Positions 54,001-60,000 of a stretch of 64,000 nucleotides of DNA are shown piece after piece. The DNA lies in NCBI RefSeq assembly GCF_003704095.1, contig NW_020846824.1, positions 186,001-250,000 on the forward strand, read 5' to 3'. Made by a program: the position numbers. Positions within the stretch are counted from its first letter, which is position 1, and each line of letters begins with the position of its first letter. Origin of the DNA: Pocillopora damicornis. Taxonomy: Eukaryota.

Positions 54001-57000
54001 AATCCCAGATTACTTTATTTTCAATTGAAAATTGTCCCAAAATTTCACATATTAAAGACATTTCACGTATGTTGAAAAAAAACAATGCATGAATTATCTT
54101 TTTTATTTTTTTTGGTAGAACACCATGGTAACCTTACTCAAGAACAAAGATTGTTAGATCATCTGCTTCAGAACTACAGGACCCGCAGACTTATCCGTCC
54201 TGTAAAGGATCTCTCCAAACCAATTGTCATCGATTTCAGTGCTGAGTTAGTTGGCGTAGCTAAAGTGGTAAGAAAAATGTACAAATTTAAAAAGGAGCTT
54301 GGAAAAAATATTACTCCTTCGGATGCGAATGCGTAAAATTAGGCTGAGCTCAAATCCGAGCCATGTGTTATGCTGGTCAGCGAATCTCGGTTTACAATTC
54401 AAAATGTTTCCGAAATGAAATTATGTTGCTATGGTAACGTATTTAGACACAAGGATGGTCACGATGCTTAGCCCGGCACTAATTTGATGAATATCTTGAA
54501 TTATGCAGGACGAAAAAGAGCAGATAATTAAGACTCACTTTTGGATTCGCCTGGTAAGTCTGTCCCTTCCTTGCTTGATATTTGCCCAGCATGAACAAAT
54601 AATAATTATGAATATTATAGTAAGTTTTTTGTGCTCTAGTAATGTACTCTTGCAGTTTTGTGGTATTGTGATTATATAATTTTGTACAACAAGAAAATTA
54701 TAAAAAAATTATTTATAAATATGACTCATTGAGGCAAAACCTGTTCAAATAAACTGTAATTAAACGATCAGACTTGCTGGTGCTTCTGTTGTCGTTTACT
54801 GTTGATTTTTTTATCGAGTGACAGCTTTGGACGATTGTTCTTGATAAGTTATCGACTAACCATTCATCGCTGAATTGTCTAACTAATGTAGTGCGGGGAT
54901 GCCCTGCTATTCGGTAACGCCATGTTCAAGTCATTTTTTTTTTTTAAGAATAACGCTAAGCTTTTCTTCGCAGGACTGGAACAATCCTTATATGACGTGG
55001 AAACCCCAGGATTACGGAGGAAACAAGGTGATGAACATTCCTCCCGAAATGCTTTGGGTGCCTGACATCGTTTTGTACAACAAGTAAGCCTCGCTTTGAT
55101 GACGTCTTGAATGAGATACTGTATTTGTGCCTCGATGAATTATGGGGGTAAACTGTGGTGCTGCGTCGGTGAGAGGGTACAGCAAGGTAATTTGGTTTTA
55201 CCAACTCGGTTGAAAACTGGAAGTGGCCACCATAAAGGGTTTCTTTCGCCGAGAGAAGGGTTAACCCTCGGAACGTTAGCTTTATAGCTTTTAACATGAG
55301 GTGGTCAATTTACGTAATCAAATGAGTTGATAAAACCAAATTACCTTGTATTTGAACTCGTCTGTCTGGCGTCAATTTCGGTCTGTCTGTGTGTATGGTG
55401 TCTTTAATTTGTACTTTTCCGTCTAATGTATCGGTCTGTCGGTAGCCTGAGCTGTTTTTTTTATTTACCTTCGACCAGTCTGTGTTGATGTCAGTCATCC
55501 TTTATCTATCTGTTTGTCGGTTTGCAGCACGCATTAATGTCTTTCCGTCTTTCTTTCTTCTTCATCTTAACTATCTGTCTCTCTTTCTATCAGTCCACCG
55601 GTCATTCTGGATTTCATTGGGTCACCTGCCATTCAGAGTTTCTTCTTAAGAAACTACAAACACATTCATAACCACTAGCCTGGGACAACCTGTGTGTAAA
55701 CACAGTGTGAAGAGACATCTCTGAAATTACTATGGCTTGCTTTGAAAAAAAACTTAATTCTACGGAAGCCTTTGGATTAGCTCTCATGAACCATCTTGTT
55801 ATGTGTTTGAATATTGAAATATATCATATCTACACACGGCTTGCAGTGTTGCAACAAGTACCGGTAAAACTCGATAATTGACAGTTATTTCTCAGATCTC
55901 CTTTCAATTCAAACTTTTCTTTCCTAGGGATTCCTCTTCTGATTTTCAGCTTCCATCCTTAAAAAGGTAAAAATAGCAAGTAATCCCTCTAAATCGACAA
56001 TTCTGACCAGTTAAACGATTTTTATCCCTCTTCTCAGCGCTGATGATCGACTCAGCTTAAAAGCAACATCCGGGTTCACAACGAGCGTCAAGGTCCGCCA
56101 TGATGGAAACCAAACATGGCGGGCTCACATCATCTACAAGAGCATGTGCAACATCAACGTCAAGTATTTTCCATTTGATGAGCAGCAGTGTAAAATGGTT
56201 TTCGCCTCTTGGTCACATGATGTGAACACAATAGACTTGAGAAAAAGGAAAGGTCTGCCAGGAGAAAAAGCTGTGGCTAAAAAAGATAGAGGATCCGACG
56301 TGTTCCAGGAAAACGAGGAATGGACGGTGGAATGGATTACCATCGATAGGCACGAGGTTCGTTAAAACTGATAAATTATAACTTCCTTGCCAATTTTATG
56401 ATACATTATAAAATACTTCAAAAGGTAGGAGGAGTTTAAAAAAATTTGACCGGAATCTGGGCCCCGTTGTTCGAAGGACGATTAGCATTAACCCAGGGTT
56501 AAATTTTTAATCCGGGTTTCTTCTTTCCTTTGTTCAAAAACTTTTTGAGTGATTTTCTCTATTCTTTTAAGATCATCCAATAATCAAGTTCTAAAAAATA
56601 CGAAATATACTGAGTTTTCTTGTAAAGTTTTCAGATCTGTGACTAGATTTCACACTTACCCTGGATTATCTTAACTCAGCTTTGAACAACCAGGCCCGAT
56701 TTATGTGATGTCATTCGCAACAATCAAGACATATAGAGATAAATCAGAAATTTTCATTTTTTTTTCAAATTCCTATCAATAACTTGATTTTGGAGGGAAA
56801 AGTTTGGTAATGTTCCCACTACCAACCTTGTTCATGAAATATCTCTGATAAAAAATAAACACCACACAGTCACCAAACGTAACTCTATCAAGTCTTTGAA
56901 AACTGATATAGTTTAAGAACAAAATTATGATATCTAGGTTGGGAGAGAAACTTTCATCGTTTGTGGTACCGGTGATTGCAATAACATTTTAAATCTAAAT

Positions 57001-60000
57001 TTGTTGTGAACTGCGAGAAACGTACATGCCTAAACATTTTGTCAAGCTACAGCAGTAGCTTGACAAAACACCGTAAGCTTTCTCTCCATCTTGGTATCAA
57101 GCTCTTACAGAATTCTTTGCTTAATCAAGTGTGAAACTGTTTCACTTGATTTCTGAGGCGACCCATAGTAAGGTCAAGTTATTCTTCTTTCGACAGAAAG
57201 AAAACGACTGCTGCGATTTACCCGTCGCCGATTTGACCGTCACCATGCTACTGCGCAGACGCACCTACTATTACGTAATGAGCCTTATCTTGCCCTGTAC
57301 TCTCATAGCTTGCACCATCTTCCTAGAGTTTATTCTTCCAGCAGAGTCTGGAGAACGAGTGGGCCTTGGTATTACTATCCTTTTATCGATGGCCGTGTTC
57401 CAAGAACTGACCTCTGAGAAGCTTCCCTCAAGCTCTGAACACTTCCCTCTGTTAGGTGAGTGCAAGGGACCAGGAGCCGTATGTTAAGTGACAAGGGAAT
57501 AAAATATTCTCTTGCATACGATAATATAACAAAAGGGAATGTTCCTAAATGCCAGTAAAACATTAGTTCTGGCTCCCCCCCCCTTCAAAGATACGCTTTG
57601 TTAAGAAAAAGTTGTAAATAATAATAATAATAGACAACCGTGCATGTCCCTAAATACAGGTAAGGACCCCTTCTGTAGTAAATCTCGCCTACGCTTCTGT
57701 TAATACCTGTTTGATTTGCCTTTATCTAGCTATGTACTACTCAGTGTCCATCATGGAGATAGGTACAGCACTCGGCGCTACCTGCATCATTCTAAATTTT
57801 CACCACCGAAGCACAAAGATGCCGAGTTGGTTCCAAAAGATCGTGCTTGAATGGCTGGCCAAGATCGTGCGATATGAGCCCACGTACAACCGGCATCCGG
57901 CTAGCGGTGACGCTTTAAATGACAGCACGCAAAAGATAATGCAATCAAACACAACTAGTGACAGGAAAAGAAACGACGCTTTTGATTTGGAAAGAGAATC
58001 AATCGAGTATGAAATGGACCTTTTCGAGGAGGCTCGCGTGGGACGTGACCAAGTGCCTTTGGCCCAAAATGGGAACATTTCAACGAATCACGTCACCAGG
58101 AAGCGCTCGGTCAAACGCAAACCGCAGGACTCTGAAACCGAGACTACGGAGGTACAGATATCGGAGGCGAAGTTTCCTTTGTATGACTTCAACAAGGAAG
58201 AATTTTACAAAAAGCAATGGCAGGATGCGGCCAGGATCTTAGATCGAGTTTTGCTGTTAGCGTCGGTTGTGATTGGGTCTGTTTCAGCAATGAGTATTTT
58301 CTTGCAATCTCCTCGGATCAGAGAACTGTTTATTCCGTGACAGAGAACTCAACACTGTGTTAGGAAAAAAGTTTTCAGGCTGTAAACCACGATTCCATGA
58401 CTATTGAGTGATTTACCTTTGCTGTGGAAATGATAGTGATGCAGCTGGGAACGATTTTGCAGGAATCACCTCGAATAAGAAGGTTCTCCATTGTCCAGAC
58501 GTGAAAACATTGAAAAAGACCATAAATTTTCAAGATTTCGTGAAGTCAACGATTTTGGCAAAACTTGGGTTTCAGACAATTCTTTCAAAAAAAATTGGCT
58601 GCTAAACTAGTCCTGGGCAAGAATCTTCATTTGATCGATCACATCTGGCCATCTGCATGAAAAGTACCTCGGCTGAAACTGTTGACTCATCAATGCGCCT
58701 TGTGGCACCATAGCAATAAAATTCTCAGTCATGGTTTGGTGTTACTGATGCAGAATACGTTCAGATCTTAACTGTTGGAAAAATTGGACCGTGACTGCAC
58801 GTCAAAAAGTTGACAAGACCTCCCCGAAACAAAATCCTGACAAAACATTGCCTGGAATTCAAACTTCGGAAGTGACGAATAAGGCAAACACTATATTCAA
58901 TGTCTAACGAAAAGGTAAATTTTTATTTGTAAGAGACAAGGTCTGAATGGTGAAAAATTTGTGCCATCAAAACCTCTAACTAGAAAAAATGAACGGTCGT
59001 TGACTAATAGATAAGAACTCGTAAAAAACAGAGTACATTTTAACCTTGAGTTCGAAGATAAGAGAACTCTGCGACATGTTGCATTGTTTTTTCAATAGAA
59101 GAGAGAAAACAATACTCCTGTAATAGTTCAATAAGGCTTTAGGGTACATAATCACTAAAAGTAAATTGTATTGGTGGATAAGGGACTGATGAAGTTCATA
59201 TCATTACAATGGAAAGTTCACGGATTTTTAAAGAAGAAGTGGAGTGTGACATGATGATTAACAAGCAGGAAGTGACAACACTAACAGATAAAACCCACTT
59301 TGAGGTTTCCAGATCAGTTACACTTTAATTTATAGAATTACCAAGCTGCATTCTGATTAGTTGTTAGGATAGAACAAGGCAAGTCACATGACAAATCATT
59401 CAGCCTAGGAAGAATCTTGATGAAATCAAAACAAGGTTGTTTAGTTCATGATCAGTATTATTGTGCCGCATTTTAAAATATTATATAGAGTAATAGTATC
59501 GACCCATGTGCTCGATTTCCGTCGTTTTCTCAGAACTGTCTTCCGATCTTCCAAGAGATTATTAACTTGGATCGTCCGAAGAAGTTTTGAAGAAGAGCGC
59601 GGGCTCGTTTCCCGATCAGCGACTGGTAATAGGTTCTAATAGACCCATCAAAACTGCTGTAACACAGTGGTCAAACGTCGAGCATGCGCAAGGGATCAAT
59701 TTTAGCCAGTCGAACGCCAATTTCTCGCTCAAAATTTCAAAGGAACACGTAATCCATCGCAAAATAAGCTGAATAAAATTGAAATGTTCAGGAAAATCTG
59801 TAAAAGGAACCAAAAGTAGGGAAAAAGAAAAACTCTTCAAACACGAAGGGTTTTCAAGTACAGTTATTTTGTTTAACATTATGTTTTAAGCTTTACCAAA
59901 AATGTTACGTGCTTTTAAATCACAGTGACTTACCAGATGGGGTTGGTTGTTTGTACTTCGTGTGAGGCGATTTGGTTCTGACAGCCACCTTATCATTACA

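What the first reader, a model, noticed from the sequence alone, without database searches (positions are those of the whole stretch)
56188..57235. Subunit 3 keeps the vicinal cysteines but has lost Y190, Y198 and K145 together
Seen: loop C reads KENDCCDLPVAD versus DIYSCCVHPYPS and KYTCCPHPYSE in the paralogs (Y190->N, Y198->V). Beta7 reads CKMVFASW versus CTLKFGSW and CHMKFASW (K145->V), and loop B Y/F151 is H. Established: Y190, Y198 and K145 are core principal-face agonist-binding and coupling residues. Inference: a CC-based annotation would call this an alpha subunit, but it probably acts as an accessory or complementary subunit, or binds a different chemistry.
Basis: partly seen in the sequence, partly recalled or inferred. 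Interest (0 to 1): 0.65.

Follow-up and report, generated by a model that had tools for sequence, protein, structure and literature searches.

The report
Coral acetylcholine-receptor subunit without binding tyrosines
This intact, strongly conserved coral gene encodes a nicotinic-receptor-type channel subunit that keeps the paired cysteines used to label "alpha" subunits but has lost the residues that normally hold acetylcholine, so it most likely serves as a helper subunit rather than a ligand binder.

Summary
The third of three tandem nicotinic-receptor-like genes (7 exons, 49167-58340, + strand) encodes V at position 145, H at 151, N at 190, the vicinal CC, V at 198 and D at 200. Both paralogs keep K145, Y/F151, Y190 and Y198.

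- **Conservation:** the substitutions are fixed. All 7 full-length coral orthologs carry the same loop C and V145.
- **Anemone orthologs:** the 2 full-length ones also have V145 and V198. They have F at 190 and no vicinal cysteines (WS instead).
- **Pore:** M1-M3 is 88/91 identical between coral and Nematostella, against 47% for the extracellular domain.
- **Loops:** loop C is the least conserved binding loop of this orthogroup. Loops D, F and G are better conserved than in the canonical paralog.
- **Complementary face:** it carries an invariant Arg at the alpha7-L119 position.

Best reading: an old (pre coral-anemone split) accessory or structural subunit of a heteromeric cation channel. It is analogous to, but independent of, vertebrate alpha5, beta3 and muscle beta1.

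A different ligand is not excluded, and function was not tested. This is a new member of a known kind, of moderate interest.

The parts
49167..49257 (+). Subunit 3, exon 1: start codon and signal peptide
   Evidence: tblastn with Stylophora ortholog P0001. ATG at 49167 and GT donor after 49257.
54119..54267 (+). Subunit 3, exon 2: N-terminal helix and beta1 (loop G)
   Evidence: tblastn with P0002, 96% identity. AG/GT boundaries. Pfam Neur_chan_LBD positions 1-46.
54509..54553 (+). Subunit 3, exon 3 (45 nt): beta2 / loop D with the conserved Trp (alpha7 W55 equivalent)
   Evidence: tblastn 100% over 15 aa. cag|...|gtaagt boundaries. Alignment to alpha7.
54974..55083 (+). Subunit 3, exon 4: loop A with the conserved Tyr (Y93 equivalent)
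   Evidence: Pfam Neur_chan_LBD 52-92.
56038..56356 (+). Subunit 3, exon 5: loop E, Cys-loop, beta7 / loop B and loop F
   Evidence: Pfam Neur_chan_LBD, E 3.6e-22. Best solved relative of this exon is the Torpedo beta subunit. Boundaries.
56198..56200 (+). Codon GTT: Val at the Lys145 position
   Evidence: Aligned to alpha7 K145.
56216..56218 (+). Codon CAT: His at the Tyr151 position (variable among orthologs)
56357..57196 (+). Intron between exons 5 and 6, lying inside the finding's span
   Evidence: GT at 56357 and AG at 57195-57196.
57197..57455 (+). Subunit 3, exon 6: loop C, M1, M2 and the start of the M2-M3 linker
   Evidence: Translation. Best solved relative is alpha7, E 1.4e-22. Pfam Neur_chan_memb.
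57203..57205 (+). Codon AAC: Asn at the Tyr190 (alpha7 Y188) position
57209..57214 (+). Two TGC codons: vicinal cysteines (192-193)
   Evidence: Absent (W-S) from the anemone orthologs.
57224..57226 (+). Codon GTC: Val at the Tyr198 (alpha7 Y195) position
57730..58340 (+). Subunit 3, exon 7: M3, cytoplasmic loop, M4 and stop codon
   Evidence: tblastn with P0002, 99.5% over 204 aa. AG acceptor. Pfam Neur_chan_memb. The seven exon lengths sum to 1584 = 527 codons plus stop.
15488..19819 (+). Paralog subunit 1: canonical K145, F151, Y190, CC, Y198
   Evidence: Ortholog P0015, 70% identity.
32348..36559 (+). Paralog subunit 2: canonical K145, Y151, Y190, CC, Y198. The N run 34882-35148 masks the acceptor and the start of its loop-C exon.
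   Evidence: Orthologs P0161 and P0162, 80% identity.

Best explanation
Subunit 3 is an intact, expressed-type gene for a cation-selective pentameric (Cys-loop) receptor subunit of the nicotinic family. It belongs to a hexacorallian orthogroup that arose by tandem duplication before stony corals and sea anemones split.

Its principal (+) face can no longer form a canonical acetylcholine site. The two loop-C tyrosines are gone, as is Lys145, the beta7 partner of the Lys145-Tyr190-Asp200 coupling triad. Its complementary (-) face carries an Arg where a hydrophobic residue normally faces the agonist.

The most likely role is an accessory or structural subunit. It would co-assemble with canonical alpha-type subunits (the neighbouring paralogs are the obvious candidates) and contribute an alpha7-like pore lining and the ECD-TMD coupling elements, while the partners bind the transmitter.

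**Shown:** gene integrity, family membership, residue states, their fixation, and the distribution of constraint.

**Inferred:** non-binding, heteromeric assembly, and the identity of the partners.
For: 1. **Intact gene.** Seven exons, all GT..AG, lengths in frame. Both Pfam receptor domains are present. The AF2 model of the 98%-identical database protein P0002 has pLDDT 80.4 and pTM 0.70. Its best structural matches are alpha7 and muscle nAChR chains, TM 0.88 normalised to the target.
2. **Residue states by alignment to solved alpha7.** V145, H151, N188(190), V195(198). W55, Y93, W149 and D197(200) are kept.
3. **Fixation.** All 7 full-length coral orthologs have KENDCCDLPVA[D/E] and C-x-[M/L]-V-F-A-S-W. 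Both full-length anemone orthologs have V145 and V198, F at 190 and W-S in place of CC.
4. **Phylogeny.** NJ tree of 39 sequences, 432 columns, 100 bootstraps. Coral plus anemone orthogroup 100. Clade with subunits 1 and 2 and P0013 100. Subunit 3 sister to subunits 1+2 89.
5. **Constraint sits in the pore, not in loop C.** Coral versus Nematostella: M1-M3 88/91 identical, ECD 102/215, loop C 6/15. For the canonical paralog: M1-M3 62/91, loop C 11/15.
6. **Loop by loop, orthogroup versus canonical paralog**:
   - loop C 37% vs 67%
   - loop F 50% vs 11%
   - loop D 57% vs 33%
   - M2 100% vs 82%
7. **Loss of K145 is typical of subunits without a principal face.** K/R at 145 occurs in 92/125 CC-bearing domains but only 5/22 CC-less domains among near relatives. 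The Torpedo beta subunit, best solved match of exon 5, itself has V there (alignment).
8. **Arg at the alpha7-L119 position** in all 9 full-length orthologs.
9. **Literature (passages only).**
   - Cationic modification of alpha7 L119C removes about 99.7% of the ACh response, and alpha7 Y188F subunits are called ACh-insensitive (PMC3068282).
   - The K145-Y190-D200 triad couples binding to gating (PMC1584325).
   - Alpha5 and beta3, regarded as accessory, lack the loop-C tyrosine (PMC9319688).
10. **Coupling elements kept.** The beta1-beta2 VDEKEQ motif, the Cys-loop FPFD, the pre-M1 Arg, and an M2-M3 linker 100% identical coral to anemone.
Against: - No functional, expression or co-assembly data were available.
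- Loop C is invariant over KENDCCDLPVA in the 7 full-length coral orthologs, including the CC. That is hard to square with a purely passive loop in corals.
- W149, Y93, W55 and D200 are retained, so a reduced or unorthodox site is possible.
- The closest solved relative overall is homomeric alpha7.
- Linkage to a canonical paralog outside this window rests only on equal 'longest contig' lengths listed for the Orbicella pair (P0006/P0270) and the Nematostella pair (P0160/P0010). No foreign locus could be read.
- Only 2 full-length anemone orthologs and 1 partial were found. The loop comparisons use 10-23 residues each.
- The tree is a simple NJ on Kimura distances.
- Codon-level selection tests were not possible because no ortholog DNA was on hand.
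- R or K at the 119 position is not unique: about 9 of 147 related domains have it.
Confidence: 0.55

Rival explanations
1. The subunit has a re-tuned orthosteric site and is gated, alone or with partners, by a ligand other than acetylcholine. This would resemble orphan or re-purposed nicotinic-like receptors of other invertebrates.
For: - Loop C is strictly conserved in its non-canonical, acidic form in the 7 full-length coral orthologs.
- It is 11/15 identical between two distant anemones.
- A core D-x-x-[D/E]-x-P-V-A-[D/E] is shared by corals and anemones.
- The loop F motif FQENEEW is invariant in the orthogroup.
- W149, Y93 and W55 are kept.
- Precedent: the orphan Alpo4 receptor, lineage-specific loss of the CC tip in Alpo3-like receptors, and the mention of cephalopod chemotactile receptors (PMC10338036, passages).
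Against: - Loop C is the least conserved binding loop between corals and anemones (37%), and the CC is swapped for W-S. One shared ligand for the whole orthogroup is therefore unlikely.
- It is a single-copy, slowly evolving gene, not an expanded chemoreceptor-like family.
- No candidate ligand follows from the sequence.
Confidence: 0.2
2. It still binds acetylcholine at an unorthodox or low-affinity site, using W149, Y93 and the partner's complementary face. It would then be a true, if weak, alpha subunit.
For: - W149, Y93, the CC (in corals) and D200 are retained.
- Unorthodox ACh sites formed by alpha5 and beta3 have been claimed and disputed (PMC9319688, passages).
- ACh-evoked nicotinic-type currents exist in Nematostella cells (PMC7250568, passages).
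Against: - Both loop-C aromatics and K145 are absent in all 9 full-length orthologs, with F190 in anemones.
- Among 125 CC-bearing relatives, 120 and 121 keep an aromatic at positions 190 and 198.
- Alpha7 Y188F is described as ACh-insensitive (PMC3068282).
- The anemone orthologs lack the CC altogether.
Confidence: 0.15
3. The copy is decaying: a duplicate under relaxed selection on its way to a pseudogene.
For: The branch leading to the orthogroup is long. Position 151 varies among orthologs.
Against: - Open frame across seven exons with canonical splice sites.
- 75-98% identity among corals, and M1-M3 91/91 identical between the three coral sequences compared and 88/91 to Nematostella.
- Orthologs in 7 coral and 3 anemone entries.
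Confidence: 0.02

Closest known systems
Vertebrate neuronal alpha5 subunit (accessory subunit)
   Same: Both carry the vicinal cysteines yet lack the functionally critical loop-C tyrosine. Alpha5 is regarded as a non-binding fifth subunit that tunes the channel (PMC9319688 and PMC7744819, passages).
   Different: - Independent origin: subunit 3 groups with cnidarian paralogs at 100% bootstrap, apart from all bilaterian sequences sampled.
- It also lacks Tyr198 and Lys145.
- Its anemone orthologs have lost the CC.
- No alpha5 sequence was aligned here, so residue-by-residue likeness is taken from the paper only.
Muscle-type beta1 subunit (Torpedo/human)
   Same: - It is the best solved match of exon 5 (6uwz_C, E 8.5e-16).
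- It has Val at the 145-equivalent position.
- Its loop F is of similar length (alignment).
- From my own knowledge rather than a call, it is a structural subunit that contributes to neither agonist site.
   Different: - Beta1 has no CC and has Tyr rather than Trp at the 149 position.
- Over the whole protein, alpha7 is the closer relative.
- No orthology.
Vertebrate beta3 subunit
   Same: Loop C lacks the critical tyrosine (Asp instead), and beta3 is an outlier at the post-loop-C aspartate. It is treated as accessory (PMC9319688, passages).
   Different: Beta3 has no CC and a positively charged loop C. Subunit 3 keeps the CC (in corals), keeps D200 and has an acidic loop C.
Alpo3-like / Alpo4 lophotrochozoan nicotinic-like receptors
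   Same: The CC tip is lost in one lineage of an orthologous family but kept in others. These are orphan nicotinic-like receptors (PMC10338036, passages).
   Different: Alpo4 keeps the aromatic cage (loop A, B and C aromatics), whereas subunit 3 has lost the loop-C aromatics. They belong to different phyla and clades.
Human alpha7
   Same: - Closest solved relative overall (E 4.8e-75; Foldseek TM 0.88).
- Same M2 gate residues Leu 9', Ser 10', Val 13' and Glu -1' (prime numbering recalled).
   Different: Alpha7 has the full aromatic box and K145, and has L109, Q117 and L119 on the complementary face. Subunit 3 has K, T and R at those positions.

Membership tests
[quoted passage not shown] | Extracellular ligand-binding domain plus four-helix membrane domain | tested here: met
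   Pfam PF02931 and PF02932 on exons searched one by one. AF2 model with helices 238-258, 266-287, 299-325 and 451-492. Foldseek top hits are nAChR chains.
[quoted passage not shown] | Cys-loop: two cysteines 13 residues apart with the FPFD motif | tested here: met
   CNINVKYFPFDEQQC lies in exon 5. Both cysteines are invariant in alignment A4.
[quoted passage not shown] | Glu at -1' before M2 (cation selectivity) and Leu at 9' | tested here: met
   The ESGER...ILLS stretch aligns to alpha7 SGEK...VLLS. The link between these residues and cation selectivity is established knowledge, recalled.
Alpha subunit by the formal definition | Vicinal cysteines 192-193 at the tip of loop C | tested here: met
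   TGC TGC at 57209-57214. Present in all 7 full-length coral orthologs. Absent (W-S) from both full-length anemone orthologs.
Agonist-binding principal (+) face of a nicotinic receptor | Loop A Tyr93 and loop B Trp149 | tested here: met
   LYNN and FASW align to alpha7 Y93 and W149.
Agonist-binding principal (+) face of a nicotinic receptor | Loop C Tyr190 and Tyr198 | tested here: not met
   Asn and Val here. N/V in all 7 full-length corals and F/V in both full-length anemones.
Agonist-binding principal (+) face of a nicotinic receptor | Lys145-Asp200 pair of the coupling triad | tested here: not met
   Val at 145 in all 9 full-length orthologs. Asp or Glu at 200 is kept. Triad as described in PMC1584325.
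ACh complementary (-) face | Loop D Trp55 and hydrophobic loop E residues (alpha7 L109, L119) | tested here: inconclusive
   W55 is kept. Position 109 is K in corals and I/T in anemones. Position 119 is R in all 9 full-length orthologs. A cationic group at 119 abolishes ACh responses in alpha7 (PMC3068282).
Accessory subunit in the sense of vertebrate alpha5/beta3 | Lacks the loop-C tyrosine needed for a principal site | tested here: met
   PMC9319688.
Accessory subunit in the sense of vertebrate alpha5/beta3 | Functions only together with binding subunits, in a non-binding position of the pentamer | not testable with these tools
   No expression, assembly or multimer-structure tool was available.
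Accessory subunit in the sense of vertebrate alpha5/beta3 | Orthology to alpha5/beta3 | tested here: not met
   Subunit 3 sits in a cnidarian-only clade with subunits 1 and 2 (bootstrap 100). That clade is apart from the sampled bilaterian alpha3-like, beta4-like, alpha7-like and alpha9/10 sequences. Vertebrate alpha5 and beta3 themselves were not in the tree.

The most novel reading that the evidence does not exclude
Hexacorals have kept, for as long as corals and anemones have been separate, a dedicated subunit in which both agonist-facing surfaces are disabled for acetylcholine while the pore is nearly frozen (88/91 residues). This would be an independent, cnidarian invention of the fixed-position structural subunit otherwise known from the vertebrate muscle receptor. 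Alternatively, the conserved acidic loop C and the FQENEEW loop F form the site for a still unknown non-cholinergic ligand.
Probability: 0.15. Interest if true: 0.65.

Novelty: new member of a known kind. Interest (0 to 1): 0.38.

Why it matters
- **Classification.** The alpha / non-alpha label, based on the vicinal cysteines, flips between orthologs of one gene: CC in corals, W-S in anemones. Meanwhile the loss of Tyr190, Tyr198 and Lys145 is shared. CC-based counts of "alpha" subunits in cnidarian genomes therefore misjudge how many subunits can bind acetylcholine. One published Nematostella survey excluded sequences lacking the cysteines (PMC6825365, passages), so this orthogroup may have been left out there.
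- **Heteromeric receptors.** It gives a concrete candidate for a non-binding partner in cnidarian heteromeric receptors, sitting next to two canonical alpha-type genes.
- **Evolution.** It suggests that division of labour between binding and structural subunits evolved more than once.

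Tried and rejected
- **Relaxed selection or pseudogene.** Rejected by the open frame, the canonical splice sites and the near-invariant pore.
- **Basic complementary face for zwitterionic ligands.** R/K at position 57 is common (60 of 147 related domains). R/K at 119 occurs in about 9 of 147, mostly with a W-[K/R]-P-P-A-I-Y-K-S motif. The basic residues are therefore not distinctive enough to carry that idea, which I keep only as a low-probability part of the rival.
- **Taxon names of atypical relatives.** Their taxa stay unknown.
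- **Paper 10.64898/2026.01.28.701697.** It held nothing on nicotinic subunits beyond their use as an outgroup.
- **Literature search** (accessory subunit, alpha5, vicinal cysteines, Tyr190). It found nothing relevant.
- **Virus-like stretch.** Pfam scans of 80 open frames of at least 75 aa and 139 open frames of 55-74 aa, taken outside the receptor exons, gave only SET, PAN and receptor-domain hits. I did not locate the stretch the operators mention.
- **The repeat finder on the whole window.** It returned only the paralogous exons and a few short dispersed repeats.
- **Ortholog loci.** The genome collection on hand holds bacteria and archaea only, so no ortholog locus could be fetched. Synteny and dN/dS were not computed.

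Full report
**What is in the window**

The window (GC 36.7%; two N runs at 26044-26053 and 34882-35148) holds three nicotinic-receptor-like genes in tandem on the + strand.

- Subunit 1 lies at about 15488-19819, subunit 2 at about 32348-36559 and subunit 3 at 49167-58340.
- tblastn with all 269 proteins fetched by then found no further receptor-like piece outside these three regions.
- Subunit 3 has seven coding exons: 49167-49257, 54119-54267, 54509-54553, 54974-55083, 56038-56356, 57197-57455 and 57730-58340.
- All junctions are GT..AG. The exon lengths sum to 1584 bases, which is 527 codons plus the stop.

They were searched one by one. All full-length work used database protein P0002, which matches the window at 98% over 488 aligned residues.

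**The observation**

Alignment to solved human alpha7 chains fixes the numbering.

| Position (alpha7 numbering) | Subunit 3 |
|---|---|
| K145 | V |
| Y151 | H |
| Y188 (Torpedo 190) | N |
| C190-C191 | kept |
| Y195 (Torpedo 198) | V |
| D197 (Torpedo 200) | kept |
| W55, Y93, W149 | kept |

Both paralogs have K145, Y or F at 151, Y190, the CC and Y198.

The combination is rare. I used domain envelopes from the nearest 150 cluster representatives that aligned without gaps at both motifs. There were 155; envelopes with gaps were dropped, and 8 of the 155 belong to this orthogroup.

- 125 of the remaining 147 carry CC.
- 120/125 have an aromatic at 190 and 121/125 at 198.
- 92/125 have K or R at 145.
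- 2/125 lack all three.

**Orthologs**

An exon search and two full-length searches returned the following.

- Seven full-length coral proteins. Named ones are from Stylophora pistillata, Acropora cervicornis, Orbicella faveolata and Porites harrisoni. Three come from unnamed records.
- Two coral fragments.
- Two full-length sea-anemone proteins: Actinia tenebrosa at 56% identity and Nematostella vectensis at 54%.
- One partial anemone protein (Actinostola).

After these the score falls from 583-602 bits to 358 bits at 37% identity. From there the hits are subunit-2-type proteins. In the exhaustive search of 50%-identity representatives, the orthogroup's cluster scores 1116 bits and the next protein 370. 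Nothing from octocorals or medusozoans rose above paralog level. The word-indexed search can miss relatives, so this absence is weak evidence.

The window's protein is closest to P0002 and to Stylophora. The source is therefore a stony coral near Stylophora; I did not try to name it further.

**Fixation and the anemone surprise**

- All seven full-length coral orthologs read KENDCCDLPVA followed by D or E, and C-x-[M/L]-V-F-A-S-W.
- The two full-length anemone orthologs share V145 and V198. They have F at 190 and W-S in place of the vicinal cysteines, and R at 151.
- So the loss of K145 and Y198 predates the coral-anemone split.
- The CC, present in the outgroup paralogs, was later lost on the anemone side.
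- Position 151 drifts among orthologs (H, Y, Q, R).
- The formal alpha / non-alpha label therefore differs between orthologs of a single gene.

**Phylogeny**

I built a neighbour-joining tree (39 sequences, 432 columns with under 20% gaps, Kimura distances, 100 bootstraps).

- Coral plus anemone orthogroup: 100.
- Clade of subunits 1, 2, 3 and P0013, excluding all sampled bilaterian sequences: 100.
- Subunit 3 as sister of subunits 1+2: 89.
- Nematostella P0010 with the subunit 2 group: 90.
- The stem of the subunit 3 group is long and its internal branches are short.

**Where the constraint lies**

| Comparison (coral P0002 vs Nematostella) | Subunit 3 | Subunit 2 type |
|---|---|---|
| Extracellular domain | 102/215 | 102/207 |
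| M1-M3 | 88/91 | 62/91 |
| Loop C hairpin | 6/15 | 11/15 |
| Loop F | 8/13 | 2/11 |

Averaged over all coral-anemone pairs:

| Region | Subunit 3 | Subunit 2 |
|---|---|---|
| Loop C | 37% | 67% |
| Loop F | 50% | 11% |
| Loop D | 57% | 33% |
| Loop G | 56% | 47% |
| Loop E | 51% | 61% |
| Loop A | 93% | 83% |
| Loop B | 65% | 64% |
| M2 | 100% | 82% |
| M2-M3 linker | 100% | 77% |

Constraint in subunit 3 has moved away from loop C. It now lies towards the pore, the coupling elements and the complementary-side loops.

These loop figures rest on 10-23 residues each and on two anemone sequences. Within corals, loop C is nevertheless invariant over KENDCCDLPVA in the 7 full-length orthologs.

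**The complementary face**

Aligned to alpha7, subunit 3 has K at L109 (corals; I or T in anemones), T at Q117 and R at L119. The R is present in all nine full-length orthologs.

In alpha7, attaching a cationic group to L119C removes nearly all response to ACh. The same change in beta2, or in the muscle complementary subunits, does likewise. Alpha7 Y188F subunits are described as ACh-insensitive (PMC3068282, passages).

R or K at this position is not unique: about 9 of 147 related domains have it.

**Structure**

The AF2 model of P0002, built with a 61-sequence alignment, has mean pLDDT 80.4 and pTM 0.70. Confidence is low only at the N-terminus, residues 111-120, the loop F insertion and the cytoplasmic loop.

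Foldseek places it on alpha7 (TM 0.88 normalised to the target) and on muscle nAChR chains.

By sequence the best solved relative of the whole protein is alpha7 (E 4.8e-75). The best for exon 5 alone is the Torpedo beta subunit, which itself has V at the 145-equivalent position.

**How it most likely works**

The gene encodes a complete cation-channel subunit: Glu at -1', Leu at 9', and intact Cys-loop, pre-M1 and M2-M3 elements.

- Its + face lacks both loop-C aromatics and the Lys of the K145-Y190-D200 coupling triad (PMC1584325, passages).
- Its - face carries a cationic side chain at a position where one blocks ACh action.
- The vertebrate subunits regarded as accessory, alpha5 (which has the CC) and beta3, likewise lack the loop-C tyrosine (PMC9319688, passages).
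- Among near relatives, K/R at 145 is kept in 92/125 CC-bearing domains but only 5/22 CC-less domains.

I therefore read subunit 3 as an accessory or structural subunit of heteromeric receptors. The binding sites would be supplied by canonical subunits, and the neighbouring subunits 1 and 2 are the obvious candidates (confidence 0.55). The non-binding role, the heteromeric assembly and the partners are all inference.

A nicotinic-type ACh response does exist in anthozoan cells (PMC7250568, passages).

**Against this reading, and rivals**

- Loop C is frozen within corals, which suggests it does something there.
- W149, Y93, W55 and D200 remain.
- The nearest solved relative is a homomer.
- No expression or assembly data were available.

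A re-tuned site for another ligand (0.2) or a weak unorthodox ACh site (0.15) remain possible. Orphan nicotinic-like receptors and lineage-specific loss of the CC tip are documented in lophotrochozoans (PMC10338036, passages). Decay or relaxed selection is contradicted by the data (0.02).

**Known or new**

My searches found no paper on this coral/anemone subunit:

- nicotinic acetylcholine receptor, cnidarian, Nematostella, subunit
- nicotinic acetylcholine receptor, coral, Acropora, subunit, settlement
- the lophotrochozoan-expansion terms

The Nematostella survey PMC6825365 (passages) removed sequences lacking the cysteines.

The kind of thing, a nicotinic-family subunit with a degenerate principal face, is known. 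This one is an independent, old, hexacoral member, with the extra twist that the CC is kept in one order and lost in the other.

**Left unchecked**

- Synteny outside the window. The only hint is that the paired proteins list equal contig lengths.
- Codon-level selection tests.
- The viral and metagenome contig collections (closed).
- The location of the virus-like stretch named by the operators (not found by Pfam).
- The masked start of subunit 2's loop-C exon, which was left as it stands.

Noticed in passing
window 57197-57455 versus 18537-18803 and 35150-35407: The non-canonical subunit 3 keeps an alpha7-like M2 gate (Leu 9', Ser 10', Val 13'). The two canonical-binding paralogs and their orthologs carry Met 9', Ala 10', Ile 13'. 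Prime numbering is recalled.
   Followed up: partly
window 17805-18202: Subunit 1 has an extra intron inside the Cys-loop, between FPFDDQ and the second loop cysteine. Subunits 2 and 3 lack it.
   Followed up: no
window 34882-35148: This N run abuts the loop-C exon of subunit 2. The splice acceptor and the first codon(s) of that exon are masked, and the translation begins at KYTCC. It was not filled.
   Followed up: no
window 1722-2270 (+) and 7368-7664 (+): Open frames with a SET domain (E 1e-09) and a PAN domain (E 6.4e-07) lie upstream of the receptor cluster. They are probably exons of unrelated genes.
   Followed up: no
whole window outside the receptor exons: No virus or transposon Pfam family was found in 80 open frames of at least 75 aa or in 139 open frames of 55-74 aa. 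I did not locate the virus-like stretch mentioned by the operators, and nothing was done to it.
   Followed up: partly
P0002 residues about 181-200 (window exon 5, 56038-56356): A basic insertion in loop F is present in most coral orthologs, shorter in Porites and in anemones, and has low model confidence. It is followed by the invariant FQENEEW motif.
   Followed up: partly
window 2431-2648, 11632-11849, 33615-33716: A short dispersed repeat of 102-218 nt occurs in three copies at 78-89% identity, one of them inside an intron of subunit 2.
   Followed up: no
cytoplasmic loop, window exon 7 (57730-58340): An acidic stretch of the M3-M4 loop (N-D-A-F-D-L-E-R-E-S-I-E-x-E-M-D-L in corals) is recognisably conserved in the anemone orthologs. 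The rest of the loop is only 33-37% identical.
   Followed up: no
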